Part shown: positions 38,533 through 64,000 of the stretch, in pieces
Numbering within the stretch: the first letter of the stretch is position 1
Layout: every line of letters starts with the position of its first letter
Source of the DNA: a virus
Lineage: Duplodnaviria; Heunggongvirae; Uroviricota; Caudoviricetes
Reading direction: 5' to 3' (one strand)
DNA length: 64,000 nt
IMG/VR virus record: IMGVR_UViG_3300023213_000338
The notes under the pieces: model-generated
The model's database searches: none
What the model was told of the DNA's origin: nothing
Seen by the model: only the letters and a program-made list of their open reading frames with translations
Translations under genes and position numbers: made by a program

Positions 38533-39405
38533 TTATTTATCCAAAAGATATCCTTGGATTTCCGTCAGGAGCCACTGAAGCTGAGCTTCTACAATCTTCC
38601 GCTCTTGGAGGTTAATATTTGTGAGCGGATGATCTTCTAGGGCTAAGGCAAGCTTAGCAATCTGATTTAGTATCCGATTCGTAGATTTTGATTCCTTACT
38701 TCTTTTTCTTTCAATTTCCAACGTTGCTAAATCAGGCAACTTTCTTGCAATTTGTGCTTCCGTCTCAATTTCATCTCTTGACTGATAATCTCCGACAAGG
38801 ATTTTATCTTTAATTTTATCTCTCATTTCTTCAGGAGCTGAATTAGCTTCACGGATATAGGTTCTTGGAATTTGACCCACATGAATAGCATCTTGGATCA
38901 GCTCTGGTTCGTCTAAGAGCTTAAGTAACTCAAAGACAGTTTCTTTATCGGCGGATATTTCTTCTGCAATTTCCAAGAATGGTCCCTTGATTCCCCTGCC
39001 AGTTCCTTTTCCTCCAAAACTGTAAGCCGTATTATAGTTTTTCCCCGTTTTAAGCTCATAAAGCCTAACCCATCCCCGAGCGGTATCGATCGGGTTCATG
39101 GATGCTCCATTTCTTGCGGCTGATTGGTGAAGATTTTCACTCATTTGTCTCTTTAGCCTATCATAAGGAGTAAGTTGTTTATGGTTCACAATGGCCTTAA
39201 TCTTATCCCAACCTAAAGATTTTATTGCTCTATAACGCCTTTCCCCAACGACAATTATTCCGCTTTCATCAATTTCAATGGGATGGATTTGTCCTACGTT
39301 TTTAATGTTTTCGGCTAAAGATTCTACGTCTGAAAAGCTCTTTCTCGGTTGGTGAGGATCTGGAGTTACGGAGTTAATATCAACATATAAAGAATTATTT
39401 TCCAT
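38533..39405 (-). CDS. parB: ParB-like protein (ParB/Srx N-terminal domain)
   Basis: IHPIEIDESGIIVVGERRYRAIKSLGWDKIKAIV contains the ParB GERRxRA box. No parA gene is adjacent. Confidence 0.7.
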   Translation of the reverse strand: MENNSLYVDINSVTPDPHQPRKSFSDVESLAENIKNVGQIHPIEIDESGIIVVGERRYRAIKSLGWDKIKAIVNHKQLTPYDRLKRQMSENLHQSAARNGASMNPIDTARGWVRLYELKTGKNYNTAYSFGGKGTGRGIKGPFLEIAEEISADKETVFELLKLLDEPELIQDAIHVGQIPRTYIREANSAPEEMRDKIKDKILVGDYQSRDEIETEAQIARKLPDLATLEIERKRSKESKSTNRILNQIAKLALALEDHPLTNINLQERKIVEAQLQWLLTEIQGYLLDK

Positions 39406-39908: not shown

Positions 39909-39994
39909 GAGGATTGACAGAAAATCTAAAAGAGAGTATGGTAAAAATGTTTTGGTAAAGTTCCAAAACCAACGTTTAAATTAGAGATAAAACT

Positions 39995-40112
39995 AATTTA
40001 AGAATCCCTACGCCAAGCGGGGTACTTGTAGCTTAACAGAATATCTGTTTAGTTCGGCCAAGTATGCTTGGCAAAGCTACAGGGCTTGGTCGAACCGAAC
40101 AGATATTTTTTT
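39995..40112 (+). other. highly structured intergenic element (8-bp closing stem, two internal hairpins, U7 tract)
   Basis: cttgtagc...gctacagg closes on aacagAATATctgtt and ccaagTATGcttgg hairpins. ccgaaccgaacagatat can alternatively pair with atatctgtttagttcgg. A TTTTTTT tract follows. It sits in the divergent region between the minus-strand block and gene 40124. Confidence 0.4.
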
Positions 40113-40123
40113 ATGATTAATTT

Positions 40124-40942
40124 ATGACAACCCTACCTGATTTTTTAATTATTCCAACTATTCTTCTAACAGACGAGAACATCCAACCCCTTGACAGAGA
40201 GGTTTTTGGTATTATTTATTGGACAACTAAATTAAAAAATGAAAAATGTACGATGACCAATCGTACAATAGCAGATCTTTTAAGAGCTAAGCCATCGAGC
40301 GTCTCTCATGCAGTTAATCGATTGGTGTTGGGGAAATATGTTTCTTCGGTAATTAATCCTAAAACCCACCAAAGGAAAGAACTCCGTCCACTTATATCCT
40401 TTAGTGCTATTTCAGAAAATAATGAAAACTATAACCCTAGCTCAAAAAAGCAAGGGTTTGAAGATGAGGTGCTAACCCTAGCTCAAAAAAGCTATCCCCT
40501 AGCTCAAAAAAGCGAGGGGGTTAGCTCTGTAGAGCATGATACTACTAATAAGAATATAAATAAGAATAATAAAGAAGATAAATATATAAATATATTTGCA
40601 AATAAAAAAGAGAACGCTGGGGCAGAAAAAACTACAGGTTCTTCCTTATTTGATCAGCAAATAGACAAGCAAATAATCGCCTATTGCCAACGCGAGCAAA
40701 AATTAGACAAGGGGTTTGTTAATTATGCGTCCCAACTTGTTGCACTCAAAAAAATCCGTAGTGCAAGATATACAACCGACGACATATATTTTGTCATCAA
40801 CGAAATGGTAGCTGATCCATATTGGAGTACTCGTCCATTTGATCTATTTAAGGTTTCTAACCAAATGCACTATTTTCTGAACCGAACCGTATATTTTGAC
40901 CAAAAGAAAGGAGGCGGATCACGGAATGGGAGACTTTTTTAG
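40124..40942 (+). CDS. wHTH DNA-binding protein with internal LAQKS repeats (possible replication-initiation or regulatory protein)
   Basis: N-terminal MTNRTIADLLRAKPSSVSHAVNRLV is helix-turn-helix-like. The internal repeat is LAQKSYPLAQKSEG, from a DNA repeat at 40470-40510. Confidence 0.4.
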   Translation: MTTLPDFLIIPTILLTDENIQPLDREVFGIIYWTTKLKNEKCTMTNRTIADLLRAKPSSVSHAVNRLVLGKYVSSVINPKTHQRKELRPLISFSAISENNENYNPSSKKQGFEDEVLTLAQKSYPLAQKSEGVSSVEHDTTNKNINKNNKEDKYINIFANKKENAGAEKTTGSSLFDQQIDKQIIAYCQREQKLDKGFVNYASQLVALKKIRSARYTTDDIYFVINEMVADPYWSTRPFDLFKVSNQMHYFLNRTVYFDQKKGGGSRNGRLF

Positions 40943-41549: not shown

Positions 41550-42016
41550 AAAATCGTTCAATATTTGTTATAATATTAACACTAGGCATAGGGGCGAAAG
41601 CCTTTCTTCGATCCTAAGCATGCGTCGGATTGGGAACTAGCCTAGAACAGGGGCATGAATTGATTCGAGGAGAAGCGTACTTTAAAATTGCAAGCCGACT
41701 CTTCGTCATTGTCGTAAAACAGACGAAATAAAATAAATGCTGAAAAGAAAACAGCACTACTTGCTGAAAAGCGAGCTATTGAAGAAGAGCTTGCCTCAAG
41801 CATGTATCAACCTCTTTTCGCTTAAAACTAAGCGATTAGTGGAAGACGTTTCAAAATAATTTGCTTGTCGATTGTTTGAGGCGTAAAAACAGACAGGCCT
41901 GGCAGGAGGAAAGACTCCGTAAATAAGATAATTTTTAACATACCAAAAAAAGCTTGTAAACAATTTTTGAGAAACTTTTTCGACGGGAAGTCACTCTTCC
42001 CCATGTCCACTAAGAC

Positions 42017-42087
42017 TGCCGAGTCGACTAACGGTAAGTCAATTGCCCTTGGAGCAGTTTATCTACGTTCGAGTCGTAGCGCGGCAA
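42017..42087 (+). tRNA. tRNA-Gln (anticodon UUG), CCA not encoded
   Basis: Manual cloverleaf: acceptor tgccgag/cgcggca (one A-G mismatch), U8, D arm gact-aacggta-agtc, anticodon arm attgc-ccTTGga-gcagt, variable loop ttat, T arm ctacg-TTCGAGT-cgtag, discriminator A. Position 33 is C rather than U. Confidence 0.5.
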
Positions 42088-42095
42088 CTTAAAAT

Positions 42096-42242
42096 ATGCC
42101 ATATAAATCTAAAGCCCAACAGAAATTTTTCCACGCAAATAGGGCGAAGTTAGAATCCCAAGGAGTAAACGTTTCGGAATGGGATCAAGCTTCTAAAGGG
42201 AAAAAACTTCCACGTAGAGTTAAGAAAAAGGGTAAAAAATAA
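42096..42242 (+). CDS. small basic protein (48 aa: MPYKSKAQQKFFHANRAKLESQGVNVSEWDQASKGKKLPRRVKKKGKK)
   Basis: ATG-to-TAA ORF that exactly fills the gap between the two tRNAs. It is lysine-rich like the micro-ORF array. Confidence 0.35.
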   Translation: MPYKSKAQQKFFHANRAKLESQGVNVSEWDQASKGKKLPRRVKKKGKK

Positions 42243-42316
42243 GCGACTGTAGTTAATTGGCTTAACGTTTCCCTTCCAAGGAAAGGAAGAGAGTCCGATT
42301 CTCTCTAGTCGCTCCA
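42243..42316 (+). tRNA. tRNA-Gly (anticodon UCC) with encoded CCA
   Basis: Manual cloverleaf: acceptor gcgactg/tagtcgc (one GU), D arm gtta-attggct-taac, anticodon arm tttcc-cTTCCaa-ggaaa (perfect stem, U33, A37), variable loop ggaa, T arm gagag-tccgatt-ctctc, discriminator T, CCA. Confidence 0.55.
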
Positions 42317-43883: not shown

Positions 43884-44300
43884 CTATGTCCTTTCACTTA
43901 TGGCTAACTTAGGAAACTTTTTCCTGAATTTATTCCAAAAGCGTCTATCAAATGGAAGTTCCTCGTTGGTATACATGGCTCGGATCGTGCTTTGGAGAAA
44001 TAGTGGCATAACGGCTATATAGCGTCTTTCATGCTCTTTTCCTCCTTGAGTTTGTCCAAACTTTTTGTCTTGGAGATTTGATTTATCTAATTTCACGTTA
44101 TATAAAATATCTTGAACTTCTTCTGGATATCTTCTTGCCCACTCCTGAGCCAAGAGTTCAATTGTGCCTCCTTCTTCCCATGGGTCTTTTTCCTTTCTCG
44201 CCCACATAACTTTAGTTGCAAAACTTGAATCTTCCATGTTAACAACCATAGGGACATTTCCAACTTTACTTTCTATAACTTTGAGTTGCTGAGGCTTCAT
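43884..44300 (-). CDS. hypothetical protein
   Basis: 138-aa ORF. Confidence 0.45.
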   Translation of the reverse strand: MKPQQLKVIESKVGNVPMVVNMEDSSFATKVMWARKEKDPWEEGGTIELLAQEWARRYPEEVQDILYNVKLDKSNLQDKKFGQTQGGKEHERRYIAVMPLFLQSTIRAMYTNEELPFDRRFWNKFRKKFPKLAISERT

Positions 44301-44321
44301 GTTCTGTATTTTATTTTAATT

Positions 44322-44534
44322 TTATTTATTAAGATTAGATATTCTCCATTTGGGTAATGGTTTCTTTAATTTTCCATCTTCACAAGCCCAACATAAAAAA
44401 TTACCCTTATCTTCTATTTGGTATAATCCGCAAAAAGGACAAGTAAAATATCTAACTTTCCCTATCAGTTTGCCACCTAGATTTATTATAGCTTCATTTT
44501 TGAACTTATATTTTTCTTTTTTCTTTTTTATCAT
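44322..44534 (-). CDS. zinc-ribbon microprotein
   Basis: CPFCGLYQ...CWACEDG. Confidence 0.4.
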   Translation of the reverse strand: MIKKKKEKYKFKNEAIINLGGKLIGKVRYFTCPFCGLYQIEDKGNFLCWACEDGKLKKPLPKWRISNLNK

Positions 44535-56003: not shown

Positions 56004-56321
56004 TTAAATATTTAATTCTTTTTTGATTATATCAAATTTATTTTGTGTGGAGTTAATAATCTCTTGTTGTTTCTCAGTTAAAGAAAAAGCTTTCGTTATA
56101 ATCTTTGCACCTTTACTAAAATACCATCCATGTTGGTGTTGTAACCCACACGCCTTACACATTTGATCTCCGCTCATGTTGCTTCCCTTTTGGCTATCAT
56201 TTGTATATACGCCATAGTTTTTCTGCTCATTCCAACAAATAACTATTCCAATCGGTTCTATCATAACTCCTCCCTGTAAGTTTCCTTGAATTTCATCTCC
56301 AATCTCAAAACTCTCTTTCAT
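56004..56321 (-). CDS. hypothetical protein
   Basis: 105-aa ORF. Confidence 0.4.
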   Translation of the reverse strand: MKESFEIGDEIQGNLQGGVMIEPIGIVICWNEQKNYGVYTNDSQKGSNMSGDQMCKACGLQHQHGWYFSKGAKIITKAFSLTEKQQEIINSTQNKFDIIKKELNI

Positions 56322-56411
56322 AAAACCTACCTTTCAATTTGATGCTTCAAGTTCGCAAAAGTCTGTGTGAGCGAATCAATTATTTGTTTAGTTTTTTTAG
56401 GAATTATTCCA

Positions 56412-56726
56412 TCAATCAATAGGTAGAAGCGTACAATGTGACCAAGCATACATAAAATCTTTTCTTCCTGCTAGATTTATAAAATAGTCTTCTGAAAGAT
56501 AATAGAGAGGATTTGCTATGCGTTCTTCAGAGTTTAAGATGAGTATTTTATGAATTGTTAAAGGCTCTTTTCTTTTAATAAAAGGTAAGTCTCGAGGAAT
56601 TAATTTATTACATCCTTTCTTTTGACAGCGACCCCCGAAACCAAATTCTGTGTCTTGACTAATTATGTGCATAGGGTTCACAAAAACCTTAGTGCTAACC
56701 TTAAAAGGGATAACTATATCATTCAT
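56412..56726 (-). CDS. hypothetical protein
   Basis: 104-aa ORF. Confidence 0.4.
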   Translation of the reverse strand: MNDIVIPFKVSTKVFVNPMHIISQDTEFGFGGRCQKKGCNKLIPRDLPFIKRKEPLTIHKILILNSEERIANPLYYLSEDYFINLAGRKDFMYAWSHCTLLPID

Positions 56727-57039
56727 TTGGAGTAATCTTATTAATCATTTTCACTAACATGAATAAGAGTTCAACAAACAACCAAATTAAAAGATTAATA
56801 AAAATTGCCATAGCTATCGGAAAGCCCAAAGCCCATTTCTTAGGATTAAGAACAAAATCTATAAAGTTTCCAAAGGCTAAAATCCAACACACTGCAAATA
56901 TTAGTCCTTTAAATAGAGTAAGCATAGAATCAAAGTATTTTAATTGACGAGATAATTTTGTTGTGACAAAAGAAGTTGATAAGCCAACAGTAAATGCTAT
57001 TCCAAGGCGAAAGATAAGCTCTAAAATGTTTTTTAACAT
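56719..57039 (-). CDS. small membrane protein (3 TM)
   Basis: 106 aa with hydrophobic helices. Confidence 0.45.
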   Translation of the reverse strand: MLKNILELIFRLGIAFTVGLSTSFVTTKLSRQLKYFDSMLTLFKGLIFAVCWILAFGNFIDFVLNPKKWALGFPIAMAIFINLLIWLFVELLFMLVKMINKITPNE

Positions 57040-57450
57040 ATTTCATATTAATCTATTGGCTCAAGTTCTTGGTGGAGGTTGAAGAGTTGCACTCCGATAG
57101 AATACATGGTACACATTCTATCCTACTGTAGCCTCCTTGTTGCCAGAGGGAGGTGATGATCCTCAAGTTGGCGTACGCTGTAACTTACTTCCTCTAGCAT
57201 GTATCTTTCAGACAGGGCGTAAAAGCTGTGACTGAATGCTTGTTTTTCTTTCACGCCCTTATCTGAAACTGTTTTTCAATTCTTTCTCTCTTACCCTAAT
57301 TGTTTTGGTGTAATTGAGATTGAAACTATTAAATGTGTTTGCTCTGCCTCAAACAAGACAGGTTTTAATAGCAAATAGCAATAAAATAGTTTCGCGGATA
57401 ATAGGAAAACTCCAAATTCTGTTTCTCATAGTTCTTATTTATTTCTCTAC
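57040..57450 (-). ncRNA. candidate structured leader or ncRNA (GC-richer ~400-nt transcribed noncoding region)
   Basis: It lies between the promoter at 57455-57483 and the first ORF. It has locally higher GC and several stable hairpins (cctcc..ggagg, gggcgtaaaag..ctttcacgccc) but no ORF. Confidence 0.35.
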
Positions 57451-57454
57451 ACGT

Positions 57455-57483
57455 ATTATACAATAATGATCAATTATTGTCAA
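57455..57483 (-). promoter_or_regulatory. minus-strand sigma70-type promoter (TTGACA-N17-TATAAT)
   Basis: Reverse complement reads aTTGACAataattgatcattattgTATAATa. Confidence 0.5.
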
Positions 57484-57661
57484 TATATACCAACTGTATC
57501 AAATCGGCTTTTATTTAATGATCTGGATTGTATTGTGAAAATATATAACAAAGCCTATGCAAAGGGTTTTGTGAATGTTCTAGATCGTATTGTAGCAATA
57601 TACAACTGCCCAGAAAATGGCCTACAAATAATGATCTGGATCGTATTGTGAGAAGACGTGG

Positions 57662-57847
57662 CTATGAGATAACTTGCTCCATAAGATGTTTAAGATATTT
57701 TAGATACATACTTTTAATACCCTTGGCGCATGGACTGTTAGAGGCTTCAAGTGCTTTAATCAGATCAATAGCGTTGCAATAGATAATTCGTTTGACTGTT
57801 ATAAAGTTAATGCCAACTTCAACTTTTTTTGTTTCATTCATAATCAA
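57662..57847 (-). CDS. hypothetical small protein
   Basis: 61-aa ORF. Confidence 0.3.
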   Translation of the reverse strand: MIMNETKKVEVGINFITVKRIIYCNAIDLIKALEASNSPCAKGIKSMYLKYLKHLMEQVIS

Positions 57848-57890
57848 GCTTGCTAAACTTTTGCCTGCTTAGCAAGCTTTCATCATGAGG

Positions 57891-58160
57891 CTATCTTGTA
57901 CAATAACCGCTTTCTATTAAAGAGGTTGCCGTTCGACCGTACCAGCCTTGTAAATGCCAAACCTTGCCCGTATCTATAAGGTATTGGAATGCGTCAATTC
58001 TTTCTTCATCAGTCGCATTTTCTCCTTCGCAAAACCCTTCCGCATATGCACACGCTAGATATGGAGTCCACGCCTTAAGATATGTTTTTTTACTCATATT
58101 TCTCCTCCTTTCTTTAAGATTTAAGCTTGCATGAGTCCTGTAATCACTTACAGAACTCAA
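57891..58160 (-). CDS. hypothetical protein
   Basis: 89-aa ORF preceded by an aggagg RBS. Confidence 0.4.
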   Translation of the reverse strand: MSSVSDYRTHASLNLKERRRNMSKKTYLKAWTPYLACAYAEGFCEGENATDEERIDAFQYLIDTGKVWHLQGWYGRTATSLIESGYCTR

Positions 58161-58166
58161 ACAAGG

Positions 58167-58712
58167 TTAAGAATATATAACTATTCCCTCTTTGAACTCT
58201 TGATTTAATCTCTTACCCAAAACCTCATTATAGATGTACCAGTTCCAGTTTTTTTGATATACGCCCATGCCGTTAGGCAGATATTTATTAATCCATTTTT
58301 TAGTCGTAACAGTGGCGTAGCCTCCATTAAACAATTGATATTCATGGTTTTTGATTTTAACAATATCAGTGTCATAGAGTCTAACAACCTTGTACCCGTT
58401 TTCAAACCGCTCAAAAACGTTTTGACTTATTCTTTTAACTAAACCACGTTTCACTCTTTTAAATAGGCCAATGTAAATTTGAAATTGACCTATGTTAGTA
58501 AGTTTTGCGGTTAACATTCCATGCGTAGAAAGCAAGGCCTCAAGTTTTGTTAAAAATTGAGCTCTTGTTAACGCTGGCTCGTCCTCCAAGCCAAACCCTG
58601 AACTATCAACGAAAAACTCTTTAATAAGCTCAAACCCTTGCAACTGCATTGTTTCTACACTACACGGGCTAGCTCTAAAAACTTTCTCAATTGTTGATGA
58701 TGTAATTCTCAT
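58167..58712 (-). CDS. hypothetical protein
   Basis: 181-aa ORF preceded by a ggaggtg RBS. Confidence 0.5.
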   Translation of the reverse strand: MRITSSTIEKVFRASPCSVETMQLQGFELIKEFFVDSSGFGLEDEPALTRAQFLTKLEALLSTHGMLTAKLTNIGQFQIYIGLFKRVKRGLVKRISQNVFERFENGYKVVRLYDTDIVKIKNHEYQLFNGGYATVTTKKWINKYLPNGMGVYQKNWNWYIYNEVLGKRLNQEFKEGIVIYS

Positions 58713-58918
58713 ATTTTCACCTCCGATCTTTTTAAATTTAAGTTATTTTGCTTATAAATATTTACATACTTATAAGCAATAAACTTAGGCAACAATTTGG
58801 ATTACGCTGTTGTTAACGAGCTCTGTTGCTTGGTGTTTAACTTTGAAGCTTGCCTTTTTAAGAGCTTCAAGTACGCTCTTAGCTTCAACTTCAATAGGAT
58901 CAAGATTGATTTTAACCT

Positions 58919-59122
58919 TCATGCTAATTGAGCAATAAAGCTTAAAGCTTCTTGAATATCCGTTGTGTAACGCGTATCAACAATGTTTTTGCTATACGTT
59001 TTATTAATTTGATATTCTTTTGCGATTAAATAAACTGTAATATCTGATCTTAGTTTGGAATTGATATATACGCTAAAAGATTTCAGATTTTTTATGTTTA
59101 ATTTTTTTAATCTTATTCTCAT
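58919..59122 (-). CDS. hypothetical small protein
   Basis: 67-aa ORF preceded by an aggagg RBS. Confidence 0.35.
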   Translation of the reverse strand: MRIRLKKLNIKNLKSFSVYINSKLRSDITVYLIAKEYQINKTYSKNIVDTRYTTDIQEALSFIAQLA

Positions 59123-59579
59123 TTTTTCACCTCCTTCCTAACAAGCGATTGTTTTTAAATGCTTCAGGTTCTTAACCCTCTAAACAGTCTATATAAAGCG
59201 GTATTGACTCTTTTAGTTGAACTAAATAGTTCTTAACCTGCTTATTGATCTATTGTTACATTTGCTTGCTATCCCGTCTTTAATTGCGTCTGCAATTAAA
59301 ATGTAATCTTTCTTTGTCATGTTACTCTAAAACGTCATAATCTCTTATCTCATAATCTTTGCCTTCTACAAGAGTAATTTGTTTTTCAGAATTATCTGCC
59401 TGTCTTTCTGTTTGGTAGACAGCGGTGACAACGCCTCCCTTAACTTCGATAATTAACATAATATTATTCACCTCTTTCCTCCGCCTTACTCAAGCGGTGA
59501 GGCTTTATATAGACTATTTAGATTATTAAAGAGCGAATGCTTCAGGTTCTTTATGATAGTTGCCTACTTACTATCGCCT

Positions 59580-60160
59580 AGCTAATTATTAATCTTTTCT
59601 GCCTTTATGGAGTAAAAATGTATAAAGGGTTTTTTAAAAATTAAGCTTTATTCTTTTTTACTTCCAAACCTAGCATAGCAAATATATCATGTTTTGTCAA
59701 TACATATCCATATTGAATAATATAACTTTAATATAACAATCTATAGCAAAATTACTATATTAAAATAGGAATATTAAACTAAAGCTAATTTTATCCATAG
59801 GCTAGTTTTAAATCTTATAAACAATCTATTTATTAAGATTTAATAAGGGGCGGTTATAGGTGTTATCGGCTTACATAAAATAAGGTCAATAAGTAAGCTA
59901 CTGGGTTTACAACATACGTATAGGGTACTTGTTGGCTTCAAGTTCACGTAGGCTTGATTGCTTCGTGTTCGCCAATATGCCCGTGGTGTTGCTACGGGTG
60001 CTTTTTTGGGGTTGGTTTGTTGTTGCTACGAGTTCTTTGCTGGCATGTCTTTATTGTGTGTTGCTACAGATGCCCTGGCGTGCGTAAATAGACTACATCC
60101 CTTTTATATACCTGTGGCGTTTTTATCGTCGTGTACCTGTAGCAACCGTTCATAAACAAT
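59580..60160. other. candidate replication origin: AT-rich unwinding region (59580-59830) plus GTTGCTACR iterons (three direct at 59998, 60032 and 60071; one inverted at 60148)
   Basis: An approximately 80% AT stretch is followed by the repeats tgttgctacgggtg, tgttgctacgagtt, tgttgctacagatg and inverted cctgtagcaacc. The region is noncoding. Confidence 0.4.
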
Positions 60161-60313
60161 CCTATAATCGTTTTTTTATACCCTAAAACGCGGGTTCTAG
60201 CTTTTATTTTCGAGGCTAGTAGCCTCAAGGTATTATAGTATATAGAAGCTTCAAAAATAAACTATAATACGGCTTACAGTTTTGTAGCTAGAGGGATGGG
60301 GGCTTCGGGTTCA

Positions 60314-60745
60314 TTATTGGGAAGGGAAGCGATTATTGAGGCTTTTACCTTGATTACATTCATGACATAATACTTGCAAATTTTCAATGGTATTATTTGA
60401 GGGATTTTCGTCTTTATGATCTATTTCAAGGTTTATATTACTTCCACATAATTGGCAAATTTTATCGCGAATTAAAACTTGATAACGTAATTTTGGGGAT
60501 AGTGTTTTTCTTTTTTTATGTTCTTTTTGTTTTTTAAAATAAAATTCTATGCGTCCTCTTCGCATTGCATTTCTGAAAGCTTCTTTTACGGTTCTAACCA
60601 GTCCGATTTTTTTCATTCGTCTTTGAATTGAGCGCACGGTTTGTTTAAGTACCAATGTATCTTTGATCTCTTGAGCAGATAAACCTTCTCTATATAGGTT
60701 TTCCATTAGTTGTAGTTCTTTTGAAGTGAAAGTGTATTGAGTCAT
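60314..60745 (-). CDS. HNH endonuclease with N-terminal HTH (homing-endonuclease-like)
   Basis: CQLCGSNINLEIDHKDENPSNNTIENLQVLCHECNQGK is a canonical HNH. The N-terminal sigma-70 region 4-like HTH is LSAQEIKDTL. Confidence 0.7.
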   Translation of the reverse strand: MTQYTFTSKELQLMENLYREGLSAQEIKDTLVLKQTVRSIQRRMKKIGLVRTVKEAFRNAMRRGRIEFYFKKQKEHKKRKTLSPKLRYQVLIRDKICQLCGSNINLEIDHKDENPSNNTIENLQVLCHECNQGKSLNNRFPSQ

Positions 60746-60752
60746 TTATTGT

Positions 60753-60781
60753 ATTATACGACTTTTAGCTATAAATGTCAA
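60753..60781 (-). promoter_or_regulatory. minus-strand sigma70-type promoter (TTGACA-N17-TATAAT)
   Basis: Reverse complement reads cTTGACAtttatagctaaaagtcgTATAATa. Confidence 0.5.
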
Positions 60782-61279
60782 GCGTAGTACTATACGACCT
60801 AGTGGGTACATTCTATGTTGTGCGACGCGGGGTATAGCTTCAATTAAATACTATAATACTTAGCTTTTAAGCTGTAGATCGGGGAATAGGCTACATATTC
60901 AATACTATAAGGCACTCGAGTCCCCTATCTGCTATATATAATACTTTTAGGAATTCTTTTTTTTATTTTATTATTTTATTTTTTGACGCTTCAAGTTCTG
61001 GGGCGTGCGGAAAGTCGATGCCCGATTTTTGGAACAAGCCTTAAAGGGATTGACTTGATATACAGTATGACATCGGTCTCCTAGCATCCTGTAGCCTCTA
61101 TTTTCCATAATTCATATATATATTATATATCTCTCTCCCATCTCGAAGCGTCTTTTCTCAATATATATTTTCCATCCTGAAGCTCCTTTTTTATATATAC
61201 TTTGTGTACCTGTAGCCTTTGTTATGGTTGTGTTAGTTGTACCTTGACAACCGATTGTAATTATTGTATCATTTGTACC

Positions 61280-61564
61280 ATGCGTAGAGTTACACTATTT
61301 CTTCAAGAAGAAATTTATCGAGCACTTCGGATAATGGCAGCTACTGAAGGTACAAGCATGACTAATATTGTGGAGGAATTAATTATGGGAAAAAGACAAA
61401 ATATTAGCAATTCTAAAGAACAAAAGAAATTAACAAAAGGATACACAATGGATAAAAGTAAAGAAAAGGTTTTTAAGAAAGATGATCCAATTTTCAAAGA
61501 AGCCAATTCAGAAGAAGCTCCTATTTCTAATGGCAAGAATAAAGATCTAAATATTCCTTTTTAG
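61280..61564 (+). CDS. ribbon-helix-helix (CopG/ParD-like) DNA-binding protein
   Basis: MRRVTLFLQEEIYRALRIMAATEGTSMTNIVEELI is the classic RHH N-terminus. The start is trimmed from the track ORF (61202), whose Cys-rich N-terminus reads through noncoding sequence. Confidence 0.55.
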   Translation: MRRVTLFLQEEIYRALRIMAATEGTSMTNIVEELIMGKRQNISNSKEQKKLTKGYTMDKSKEKVFKKDDPIFKEANSEEAPISNGKNKDLNIPF

Positions 61565-61694
61565 AGATACCTATCCCCCTTTTCTACAAAAACAGGTATC
61601 CCTAAATTTTCACTTCCCATATATTTTCCCAAAAATTTACTTGACTTTTATATATATTTAGTATATACTATATGGGTAGAAAGAAGGTGAATAT

Positions 61695-63500: not shown

Positions 63501-64000
63501 ATGCAAATTAAAAAACATTATATGAGAGATTATTCATTAGAAACCGAACAATTAATGGATAGAATGTGTCGTTATATAGAAAGGGAAAATTTTGTTTTAA
63601 ATAAAAAAAAGGCAGAAGAATGTCTTTTGAAAACATACGATCTTTTTAAGCTAAAACGGCCTCAAAAAATTGTCTGGTGTATAGATATTTTCGATAAAAA
63701 ATTTCAAAGGAGTACAAGGAGCGCATGGAGCGCAAGGAACGCAGGGAGCGCATGGAACGCATGGAGCGCAGGGAGCGCATGGAGCGCATGGAGCGCAGGG
63801 AGCGCATGGAGTGCAGGGGGCGCAGGGAGCGCAAGGAACGCAGGGAGCGCATGGAGCGCATGGAGCGCAGGGAGCGCATGGAGTGCAGGGGGCGCAGGGA
63901 GCGCAAGGAACGCAGGGAGCGCATGGAGCGCATGGAGCGCAGGGAGCGCATGGAGTGCAGGGGATACATGTGTAGATTGGACTGCACTAGACGAAGATTT
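63501..64000 (+). CDS. partial ORF (runs off the window) encoding an N-terminal domain followed by (SAW/SAG)n repeats
   Basis: ATG at 63501 with no stop to the window end. From aa ~70 it reads [27 protein letters not shown]..., encoded by the 9-bp tandem repeat. Confidence 0.35.
63724..63965. repeat. 9-bp tandem repeat GGAGCGCAK, ~27 units, with a ~90-bp higher-order duplication
   Basis: Direct reading shows ggagcgcat, ggagcgcag and ggaacgcag units repeated head to tail. GC is much higher than the surroundings. Confidence 0.8.

What the first reader, a model, noticed from the sequence alone, without database searches (positions are those of the whole stretch)
57700..61000. Candidate replication origin (AT-rich DUE plus GTTGCTACR iterons) and a recurring GCTTCAAGT motif family
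The region 59580-59830 is about 80% AT. It is followed by three direct and one inverted GTTGCTAC(A/G) repeats, and tgtacctgtagc occurs at 60128 and 61205. In addition, (A/G)GCTTCA(A/G)GT(T/A)C occurs at 57745, 58864, 59161, 59538, 59935 and 60988, and GCTTCA at 60248 and 60837. All of these lie in noncoding DNA and resemble the T4 MotA-box (TGCTTTA) class of activator sites. Together this looks like a replication and regulatory hub where transcription polarity switches from minus to plus.
Basis: seen in the sequence. Interest (0 to 1): 0.5.

Follow-up and report, generated by a model that had tools for sequence, protein, structure and literature searches.

The report
Phage control region, not replication origin
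The repeats and the AT-rich block are real, but they mark the region where the two gene arms of an uncharacterised ~100 kb phage start in opposite directions, while the best candidate for the replication origin lies 20 kb away inside the phage's own initiator gene.

Summary
The three "separate" motifs are one family. Read in the direction of the neighbouring genes, it is an 11-mer, G-N-A-Y-N-Y-G-W-A-G-C (typically GAACYTGAAGC or GTACCTGTAGC). It has 26 copies against about 2 expected, and 15 of them lie within 56.3-61.2 kb.

The origin reading is not supported:
- The array units are short and irregularly spaced (25/31/34/38/70 bp).
- DnaA boxes do not cluster there.
- The GC-skew minimum only tracks the switch in gene orientation.
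- A much better origin exists at 40435-40615. Three exact 17-nt cores (22-nt units, 41 and 21 bp apart) plus an 85% AT stretch sit inside the wHTH initiator gene. Three distant homologues show the same in-gene arrangement.

The MotA-box reading also fails. No -10 element sits 12±1 bp from any box, the boxes point antisense to the genes, and no MotA or AsiA homologue was found.

Phages related through the neighbouring gene have a 0.35-0.9 kb non-coding gap with host-type promoters at the same position. The region is therefore the divergent early-control region. I read the 11-mers as lineage-specific, orientation-dependent regulatory sites. This is an inference. Interest is modest.

The parts
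59580..59830 (.). AT-rich block (78.5% AT), the AT maximum of the window. It holds promoter-like sites facing both ways.
59672..59700 (-). Candidate early-leftward promoter: TTGACA, 17 nt, TATGCT, with TG (extended -10).
59935..60073 (-). Array of five co-oriented 11-mers: GAACTTGAAGC, GAACACGAAGC, GCACCCGTAGC, GAACTCGTAGC and GCATCTGTAGC. Start-to-start spacing is 25, 31, 34 and 38 bp.
60132..60146 (+). Inverted copy TGTACCTGTAGCAAC. CTGTAGCAAC (60137-60146) forms a perfect 10-bp inverted repeat with GTTGCTACAG (60060-60069).
59978..60006 (+). Intrinsic-terminator-like hairpin followed by T6 (dG -16 kcal/mol, z -3.1). Its stem contains the first GTTGCTACG copy.
56344..56354 (-). Perfect 11-mer GAACTTGAAGC, 22 nt upstream of the start codon of gene 56004-56321.
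57744..57754 (-). Variant copy GCACTTGAAGC.
58864..58874 (-). Variant copy GTACTTGAAGC, inside the small ORF 58785-58922.
59161..59171 (-). Perfect 11-mer GAACCTGAAGC, 38 nt upstream of the start codon of gene 58919-59122.
59539..59549 (-). Perfect 11-mer GAACCTGAAGC in the leader of the first early-leftward gene (59322-59471). It is followed by a boxA-like CGCTCTTTAA (59526-59535).
60302..60312 (-). Variant copy GAACCCGAAGC, directly after the HNH stop codon.
60890..60900 (-). Variant copy GAATATGTAGC.
60988..60998 (-). Perfect 11-mer GAACTTGAAGC. On the + strand a weak terminator-like hairpin follows at about 61001-61030.
61205..61279 (+). TGTACCTGTAGC (61205) plus two more TGTACC (61238, overlapping the -35; 61274, between the -10 and the ATG) around the RHH promoter TTGACA-17-TATCAT (61244-61272). 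The -10 ends 7 nt before the ATG, so the mRNA looks leaderless.
61280..61564 (+). Ribbon-helix-helix protein, first gene of the rightward arm. Weak hits to ParG, DUF6364 and the slr0373 family.
60314..60781 (-). HTH+HNH endonuclease gene (60314-60745) with a perfect TTGACA-17-TATAAT promoter (60753-60781). The -10 ends 7 nt before the ATG.
60247..60270 (+). AGCTTCA-N9-TATAAT segment, paralogous to 60836-60859. This is the only GCTTCA box type with a -10 at a fixed distance (9 bp).
60836..60859 (+). Second AGCTTCA-N9-TATAAT segment.
40435..40615 (+). Rival, better-supported origin. Three iterons CCCTAGCTCAAAAAAGC(R)AGGG at 40435, 40476 and 40497, followed by an 85% AT stretch (40536-40615). Both lie in the linker-coding part of the wHTH initiator gene 40124-40942.

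Best explanation
The region 59.5-61.3 kb is the divergent early-control region of a ~100 kb phage. It is not the initiator-dependent origin.

Shown:
- Two gene arms leave this region in opposite directions.
- The AT-rich block and its flanks carry host-type (sigma-70-like) promoters for the leftward early operon, for an HTH-HNH gene and for a ribbon-helix-helix gene.
Its orientation follows the local direction of transcription.
- It occurs as single copies 22-91 nt upstream of several start codons.
- It also occurs as a tight array of 5 direct copies and 1 inverted copy in a 480-nt non-coding stretch between the HNH gene and the early promoter zone.

Inferred:
- The 11-mers are recognition sites for a phage-encoded, lineage-specific regulator of early gene expression.
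- I commit to a DNA-binding protein. The early-expressed RHH protein at 61280 is the first candidate, and the HTH-HNH protein the second.
- This protein would load on the array and on the leader-proximal copies to time or damp early transcription in both directions.
- The three TGTACC sites over the RHH promoter would act as its autoregulatory operator.

Replication most likely starts at 40.43-40.62 kb, inside the initiator gene.
For: Motif unity, enrichment and clustering.

Orientation: all 8 dispersed hub copies and all 5 array copies are on the - strand, as are the genes there. The + copies sit upstream of + genes at 61206 and 40022. A further + copy at 60133 is the inverted array copy.

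Copies 22, 38, 59, 63, 67 and 91 nt upstream of co-oriented start codons.

Promoters: perfect or near-perfect sigma-70-type sites at 60781..60753, 61244..61272, 59700..59672 and 57483..57455.

TGTACC occurs three times within 75 bp, over the -35 and the start of the RHH gene.

Synteny: in seven loci from related phages, the homologue of gene 58167-58712 sits at or near the head of an operon that diverges from the opposite arm. In L144 and L148 that arm carries terminase and portal genes. The homologue is preceded by 0.35-0.9 kb of non-coding DNA with TTGACA-type promoters.

The motif is absent from those relatives. They also lack RHH and HNH homologues within the fetched loci. This fits a lineage-specific protein-site pair.

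Against an origin here and for an origin at 40.4 kb.
Against: - No binding protein is identified.
- The perfect copies do not overlap the recognisable promoters. Only 61206 lies near one, at about -74 to -64. This is unusual for operators.
- The strong strand bias would be explained more naturally by an RNA-level or transcription-coupled signal.
- RHH proteins usually bind contiguous short repeats, not sites 25-38 bp apart.
- No comparative support for the 11-mer exists, because no close relative was found in any collection.
- AT-rich DNA next to repeats is also what an origin or a packaging site looks like.
Confidence: 0.42

Rival explanations
1. RNA-level or transcription-coupled signal. The 11-mer would be read in the transcript or in the non-template strand. 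It could be a processing site, a translational operator, or an ops/nut-like loading site for an elongation factor. The array, transcribed by read-through from the HNH promoter, would act as a multi-site entry point or decoy.
For: - Co-orientation with transcription: 8 of 8 dispersed hub copies, and 22 of 26 overall.
- Several copies lie in 5' leaders or intercistronic gaps, 22-91 nt before start codons.
- No - strand terminator was seen between the HNH stop codon and the array.
- A boxA-like CGCTCTTTAA and a hairpin follow the 59539 copy.
Against: - The copies are not predicted to be more accessible than their surroundings.
- The 61206 copy lies upstream of a leaderless promoter, so it is probably not in the RHH mRNA.
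- No NusG/RfaH-like or RNA-binding protein was recognised.
- Arrays of this kind are rare for such signals.
Confidence: 0.22
2. Phage-specific single-block promoters. These could be for a phage-encoded or virion-delivered RNA polymerase or sigma-like factor, or a MotA-like activator system, clustered at the start of the early region.
For: - The copies are co-oriented, intergenic and upstream of start codons.
- They are lineage-specific.
- In the + orientation three copies read WWWTGCTTCA, like a MotA box (consensus from PMC2988021).
Against: - No -10 element at a fixed distance in either orientation (and inspection of the flanks).
- The MotA-like orientation is antisense to the genes.
- No RNA polymerase, sigma, MotA or AsiA homologue was found in the window. 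The 1909-aa protein lacks a DxDxD motif and has no meaningful PDB match.
- Five copies 25-38 bp apart are too close for independent promoters.
- The motif is rare in the other intergenic gaps of the same arm.
Confidence: 0.13
3. One reading: a replication origin, with the AT-rich block as the unwinding element and the GTTGCTACR/11-mer array as iterons. It could be a second origin or a transcription-primed origin.
For: - The AT maximum of the window lies next to a repeat array.
- The cumulative GC-skew minimum is at 59-60 kb.
- Precedents: SPP1 has a second origin outside its initiator gene (PMC6316719). From my own knowledge, the lactococcal phage c2 origin lies between divergent early and late promoters.
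Against: - Short cores and irregular, non-helical spacing.
- No DnaA-box cluster.
- The skew is explained by gene orientation. The coding strand is G-rich in every block, and blocks B and D do not differ (p = 0.74).
- The initiator's own iterons lie in its gene and have no copy here at up to 3 mismatches. In SPP1, both origins share the same repeats.
- Many motif copies are scattered next to gene starts, up to 3.6 kb from the array.
Confidence: 0.1
4. Packaging recognition site (cosB/pac-like). The array of direct and inverted short sites next to bendable AT-rich DNA would be bound by a small terminase, possibly helped by the adjacent HNH endonuclease.
For: - The geometry resembles lambda cosB R sites or P1 pac hexamers (my own knowledge).
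- An HNH gene is adjacent.
- In relatives L148 and L149 the small terminase gene sits at this divergence point.
Against: - No terminase gene lies in or next to the region in this window.
- The HNH gene points away from the rightward arm.
- Contig ends of relatives do not coincide with the gap.
- The scattered leader-proximal copies are not explained.
Confidence: 0.06

Closest known systems
Origins inside phage initiator genes (lambda ori in gene O; SPP1 oriL in gene 38, bound by gp38)
   Same: For the locus at 40435-40615: three direct repeats at one- or two-turn spacing plus an adjacent AT-rich unwinding stretch, all inside the gene of an N-terminal wHTH origin-binding protein. In homologues the gene is followed by primase and DnaB-type helicase genes (SPP1 description in PMC6316719).
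   Different: The 59.6-60.2 kb region has none of these features except AT-richness. The protein family itself is only weakly annotated (PHROG DnaD-like, E = 4e-6).
T4 MotA box / middle promoters
   Same: Three copies read (a/t)(a/t)(a/t)TGCTTCA on the + strand. This is similar to the consensus (a/t)(a/t)(a/t)TGCTTtA (PMC2988021).
   Different: No -10 element at 12±1 bp. The orientation is antisense to the genes. No MotA or AsiA homologue was found. The conserved unit extends 3' (GCTTCARGTTC), which a MotA box does not. The copies are clustered locally rather than spread over roughly 60 promoters genome-wide.
Dispersed operator families of plasmid and phage global regulators (KorB OB sites of RK2; omega-protein heptad arrays of pSM19035)
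   Same: One short site is reused many times at variable distances from several promoters. Tandem sub-sites would be bound by a ribbon-helix-helix or ParB-type protein (my own knowledge).
   Different: Omega heptads are contiguous. KorB sites are palindromic and show no orientation bias. Here the site is asymmetric and strand-biased, and the binder is unknown.
ops / nut-type leader elements (RfaH, lambda N)
   Same: A short element, dependent on orientation, in operon leaders. A boxA-like sequence sits next to one copy.
   Different: Those elements occur once per operon. No NusG-like or N-like protein was recognised. No array has been described for them.

Membership tests
Iteron-type replication origin (at 59.6-60.2 kb) | Three or more direct repeats of about 17-22 bp at spacing in phase with the helix | tested here: not met
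   The conserved core is 8-11 bp, and spacing is 25, 31, 34, 38 and 70 bp.
Iteron-type replication origin (at 59.6-60.2 kb) | Adjacent AT-rich unwinding element | tested here: met
   78.5% AT over 251 bp, and 85% in the best 80-nt window. The same stretch also carries promoter-like sites.
Iteron-type replication origin (at 59.6-60.2 kb) | Repeats match the binding sites of the phage initiator, or the initiator gene is adjacent | tested here: not met
   The initiator gene is 20 kb away. Its in-gene iteron CCCTAGCTCAAAAAAGC has no other copy in the window at up to 3 mismatches.
Iteron-type replication origin (at 59.6-60.2 kb) | Replication-driven strand asymmetry switching here, independent of gene orientation | tested here: not met
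   The skew follows the coding strand in all blocks, including the + island at 40-43 kb. Blocks B and D do not differ, p = 0.74.
Iteron-type replication origin (at 59.6-60.2 kb) | Initiation mapped experimentally | not testable with these tools
   This needs marker-frequency sequencing or an origin-cloning assay.
T4-type MotA-dependent middle promoter | MotA box (a/t)3TGCTTtA | tested here: inconclusive
   Three of the seven copies read WWWTGCTTCA (56344, 59161, 59539). The others have G, A or C before GCTTCA.
T4-type MotA-dependent middle promoter | Excellent -10 element (TAnnnT) 12±1 bp downstream of the box | tested here: not met
   None of the seven GCTTCARGT copies has one. Only 60248 and 60837 have a TATAAT, and it is at 9 bp (criterion from PMC2988021).
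T4-type MotA-dependent middle promoter | MotA and AsiA proteins encoded by the phage | tested here: not met
   No hit in about 70 window proteins scanned against Pfam, PHROGs or NCBIfam. About 36 kb of the genome lies outside the window.
T4-type MotA-dependent middle promoter | Box oriented towards the genes it drives | tested here: not met
   The box orientation is +, while the flanking genes from 56 to 59.5 kb are on the - strand.
In-gene origin of a phage replisome organiser (at 40435-40615) | [quoted passage not shown] | tested here: met
   Three exact 17-nt cores with spacing of 41 and 21 bp, then 85% AT.
In-gene origin of a phage replisome organiser (at 40435-40615) | Feature conserved in homologous initiator genes, with lineage-specific repeat sequences | tested here: met
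   L154, L155 and L156 each have three repeats of 18-24 nt at 21-24 bp spacing, at the same linker position.
In-gene origin of a phage replisome organiser (at 40435-40615) | Gene belongs to a replication module | tested here: met
   In L154 and L155 the next genes are a DnaG zinc-ribbon protein and a DnaB_C helicase. PHROG DnaD-like helicase loader and replication initiation hits.

The most novel reading that the evidence does not exclude
The 480-nt non-coding stretch (59830-60313) might be a multi-site regulatory RNA locus.

- One version: transcribed leftward, it carries six copies of the 11-mer and would titrate a sequence-specific RNA-binding regulator, as CsrB does.
- Other version: transcribed rightward, it would give short RNAs ending at the terminators at 60006 and 61030. 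These contain GCUUCAAGUUC, which is exactly complementary to the GAACUUGAAGC sites in the leaders of early mRNAs.

Either version would be a phage-encoded post-transcriptional circuit that times early gene expression.
Probability: 0.08. Interest if true: 0.7.

Novelty: new member of a known kind. Interest (0 to 1): 0.3.

Why it matters
This phage lineage is essentially uncharacterised. It has no nucleotide match among 50,697 deposited phage genomes, and most of its proteins have no family. Knowing where its two gene arms diverge, which promoters look host-type, and where replication probably starts gives a first working map.

The practical lesson is methodological. AT-rich DNA plus short repeats plus a GC-skew minimum at a switch in gene orientation is not evidence for an origin. 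The initiator gene itself should be checked first.

The oriented 11-mer family is a clean, testable target for finding the phage's early regulator. As it stands, it is an ordinary kind of feature.

Tried and rejected
**Known RNA families and folding**
- Rfam, at gathering thresholds on the whole window and at permissive thresholds on 56.9-61.7 kb, found no RNA family in the region. It found only a tmRNA and a tRNA at 41.6-42.3 kb.
- Folding of the non-coding stretches gave only modest z-scores (-2.3, -1.2, -2.9, -0.95).

**Searches for close relatives**
- Megablast of 56-64 kb against deposited phage genomes found no match.
- Searches for relatives through the 181-aa, HNH, AAA and RHH proteins in viral, metagenome and genome collections found only distant relatives, at most 59% amino-acid identity.
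- The source contig itself could not be retrieved.
- A pattern scan for GTTGCTAC-N-GTTGCTAC in viral contigs returned only what I judged to be chance matches.

**Tests of the 11-mer**
- The 11-mer is absent from all related loci.
- I tested whether its TTGAAG core could act as a -35 element. There is no consistent -10 element.
- I tested it as a -10 or transcription-start element. There is no consistent upstream element.
- It does not fit a LexA/Cheo box (GAAC-N4-GTTC).
- There is no extended flank conservation.
- There is no difference in predicted RNA accessibility.

**Other ideas tested**
- I tested whether the 1909-aa protein is a crAss-type virion RNA polymerase. It has no DxDxD motif and no meaningful PDB hit.
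- I tested whether a replication component of the GC skew could separate an origin at 40 kb from one at 60 kb. There is no signal.
- A scan for the conserved GGTACCCTGTTT...GGGGGT element in viral contigs gave four loci that appear unrelated.


Full report
**1. What the window is**

The window is a divergent phage-like genome with about 35% GC.
- It has no megablast match among deposited phages.
- Tail-type and lysis-type genes lie on the + strand from 0.2 to 27.3 kb.
- A long - strand arm runs from 27.7 to 59.5 kb.
- That arm is interrupted by a + island at 40.1-43.0 kb. The island carries a wHTH DnaD-like initiator gene, a tmRNA and two tRNAs.
- A new + arm starts at 61280.
- A protein 100% identical to gene 58167-58712 is recorded on a 99,862-nt JGI contig. 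That contig could not be fetched.

**2.

- 59580-59830 is 78.5% AT and contains the AT maximum of the window.
- GTTGCTACR occurs 8 times against 0.43 expected. Three direct copies and one inverted copy lie at 59988-60146.
- TGTACCTGTAGC is exact at 60132 and 61205.
- GCTTCARGT occurs 11 times against 1.1 expected. Seven + strand copies lie between 56344 and 60988.
- Two of these copies (57744, 58864) lie in small ORFs. The ORF 58785-58922 overlaps the upstream gene as ATGA and is probably real.

**3. The three motifs are one family**

- The reverse complement of GCTTCARGTTC is GAACYTGAAGC.
- GTACCTGTAGC differs from it at two positions.
- The reverse complements of the GTTGCTACR repeats read GCACCCGTAGC, GAACTCGTAGC and GCATCTGTAGC.
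- The degenerate pattern G-N-A-Y-N-Y-G-W-A-G-C has 26 matches against 2.2 in shuffles.
- Fifteen matches lie within 56344-61216. The maximum for any 5-kb span in 5000 random placements was 11.
- The unit looks like two tandem half-sites, GWAC-YT-GWAG-C.
- Orientation follows local transcription. All thirteen copies from 56344 to 60988 that point leftward lie in the leftward arm.
- The rightward-pointing copies lie upstream of rightward genes at 61206 (before the RHH gene) and 40022 (before the initiator gene). A third, at 60133, is the inverted copy of the array.
- Several copies lie 22-91 nt upstream of co-oriented start codons.
- Five copies form an array at 59935-60073, with spacing of 25, 31, 34 and 38 bp. 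The inverted copy is 70 bp further on.
- Outside the hub the motif is much rarer and is not significantly intergenic. It is a local feature, not a genome-wide promoter class.

**4. What the region is**

- Consensus scans give perfect TTGACA-17-TATAAT promoters at 60781..60753 (HNH gene) and 57483..57455. They also give TTGACA-17-TATCAT at 61244..61272 (RHH gene) and TTGACA-17-TATGCT with TG at 59700..59672, inside the AT-rich block.
- For the HNH and RHH genes the -10 element ends exactly 7 nt before the ATG. These mRNAs therefore look leaderless.
- I fetched seven loci through homologues of gene 58167-58712 (52-59% identity).
- In all of them that gene sits at or near the head of an operon that diverges from the other arm. 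In L144 and L148 the other arm carries terminase and portal genes.
- In all of them the gene is preceded by 0.35-0.9 kb without genes but with TTGACA-type promoters.
- The window's 59.5-61.3 kb region is therefore the divergent early-control region of this phage group.
- The 11-mer is absent from these relatives. Within the fetched loci they also lack the RHH and HNH genes.

**5. Why this is not the origin**

- The repeats are short and irregularly spaced.
- DnaA-box-like sequences do not cluster there.
- The cumulative GC-skew minimum at 59-60 kb is explained by gene orientation:
  - The coding strand is G-rich in every block.
  - The skew flips inside the + island at 40-43 kb.
  - The two halves of the - arm do not differ (p = 0.74).
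- The decisive point is that the wHTH initiator gene has its own origin-like structure:
  - Three exact copies of CCCTAGCTCAAAAAAGC (22-nt units) lie at 40435, 40476 and 40497, with spacing of 41 and 21 bp.
  - They are followed by 80 nt of 85% AT. That is as AT-rich as anything at 59.7 kb.
  - These features sit in the low-complexity linker between the conserved N-terminal wHTH domain and the C-terminal domain.
- Three homologues with 27-36% identity each carry three repeats of 18-24 nt at 21-24 bp spacing, at the same position. The repeat sequences are lineage-specific. One of them, CCCCTAGCTCAAATGAGC, resembles the window's repeat.
- In two of these homologues the next genes encode a DnaG zinc-ribbon protein and a DnaB-type helicase.
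- This is the arrangement described for SPP1 oriL in gene 38 (PMC6316719) and, from my own knowledge, for lambda ori in gene O.
- SPP1's second origin shares the same repeats as its first. Here no further copy exists at up to 3 mismatches.

**6. Why these are not MotA boxes**

- T4 middle promoters need the box 12±1 bp from an excellent -10 element, and they need MotA and AsiA (PMC2988021).
- None of the seven copies has TAnnnT 11-13 bp downstream.
- Only the two paralogous segments at 60247 and 60836 have a perfect TATAAT, and it is at 9 bp.
- The box orientation is antisense to the genes.
- No MotA, AsiA or sigma homologue was found.

**7. Mechanism**

- The anatomy is shown; the mechanism is inferred.
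- I commit to recognition sites for a phage-encoded regulator of early expression, acting on DNA.
- The first candidate is the RHH protein, which is made at once from a consensus promoter. Three TGTACC sites cover that promoter's -35 element and start site.
- The strand bias and the leader positions keep an RNA-level or transcription-coupled signal as a close rival. Predicted accessibility does not discriminate between the two.
- Promoter, second-origin and packaging-site readings are less likely, for the reasons listed under the rival explanations.

**8. Verdict**

- The sequence observation is confirmed and simplified to a single motif family.
- The origin and MotA parts do not.
- This is an ordinary kind of phage feature in an unusual lineage. 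Interest is 0.3.

Noticed in passing
window 40435-40615 (gene 40124-40942): Three exact 17-nt cores (22-nt iterons) plus an 85% AT stretch sit inside the wHTH initiator gene. Three distant homologues (L154, L155, L156) have the same arrangement. This is the best origin candidate in the window.
   Followed up: yes
window 7027, 8342, 14904, 26643, 34750, 38527, 49239, 55813, 59143, 60327; L138 565, 6036, 9604: A second over-represented 11-mer, AAGCGATTRTT (extended form AAYAAGCGATTRTTT, with imperfectly palindromic arms). It has 10 copies against 0.10 expected, is dispersed over the whole window, and shows no strand bias. It also occurs 3 times in 15.8 kb of relative L138, once between the -35 and -10 elements of a promoter-like site. 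One copy abuts the 3' end of the ParB/Noc-like gene 38533-39405, so it might be that protein's binding site.
   Followed up: partly
window 60745-60781, 61244-61282, 44300-44325: Three genes (HNH, RHH and 43884-44300) have a -10 hexamer ending exactly 7 nt before the ATG and no Shine-Dalgarno sequence, so their mRNAs look leaderless. Most other genes in the window have strong AAGGAGGTGA-type ribosome-binding sites.
   Followed up: partly
window 57517-57649: Three copies of a 20-mer, AATGWTCTRGATYGTATTGT, at 57/56-nt spacing (3 matches against 0.07 expected). They lie immediately upstream of the perfect promoter 57483..57455, which is followed by a ~400-nt gene-free leader with some predicted structure (z -2.9).
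   Followed up: partly
L138 9150-9320, L140 2835-3000, L144 9245-9400, L147 8520-8790; window 61566-61640 and about 61000-61060 (- strand): A conserved non-coding module in relatives: CCCAAAAAAtt..AAAAGACGGTACCCTGTTTT..GAGGGGGT, then about 70 nt later CCCTTTAnCC..GGGGGTGG..CTTATC. The window has similar pieces, with the RHH gene lying between them. The first piece forms a strong hairpin (dG -21.7 kcal/mol, z -6.3) just after the RHH stop codon. Its function is unknown.
   Followed up: partly
window 40034-40113: A very stable hairpin (dG -38 kcal/mol, z -5.9) followed by T7. It lies between a promoter-like site (39914-39942) and the initiator start codon, and is flanked by convergent CTGTAGC-type motif copies. 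It may be an attenuator of initiator expression.
   Followed up: partly
window 59526-59535 (- strand): A boxA-like CGCTCTTTAA lies 3 nt after the 59539 motif copy. A hairpin (59483-59503) follows, in the leader of the first early-leftward gene. The layout resembles a nut site.
   Followed up: no
window 59172-59199 and 59502-59529: A 28-nt inverted repeat (86% complementary) brackets the two smallest early genes. Each arm lies next to a direct copy of the 11-mer.
   Followed up: no
window 41651-42316: The phage carries a tmRNA (Rfam 80.8 bits), a tRNA-Gln and a tRNA-Gly, directly after the replication genes.
   Followed up: no
window 63700-63990: A long run of 9-nt tandem units (GGAGCGCAT / GGAGCGCAG and similar). 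It would encode a collagen-like G-x-x repeat on the + strand.
   Followed up: no
window 60314-60745: The HNH protein hits the NCBIfam IscB model (E = 2e-6), but only over the HNH motif. At 143 aa, with an N-terminal HTH, it is not an IscB. No HEARO/omega-RNA-like Rfam hit lies next to it.
   Followed up: partly
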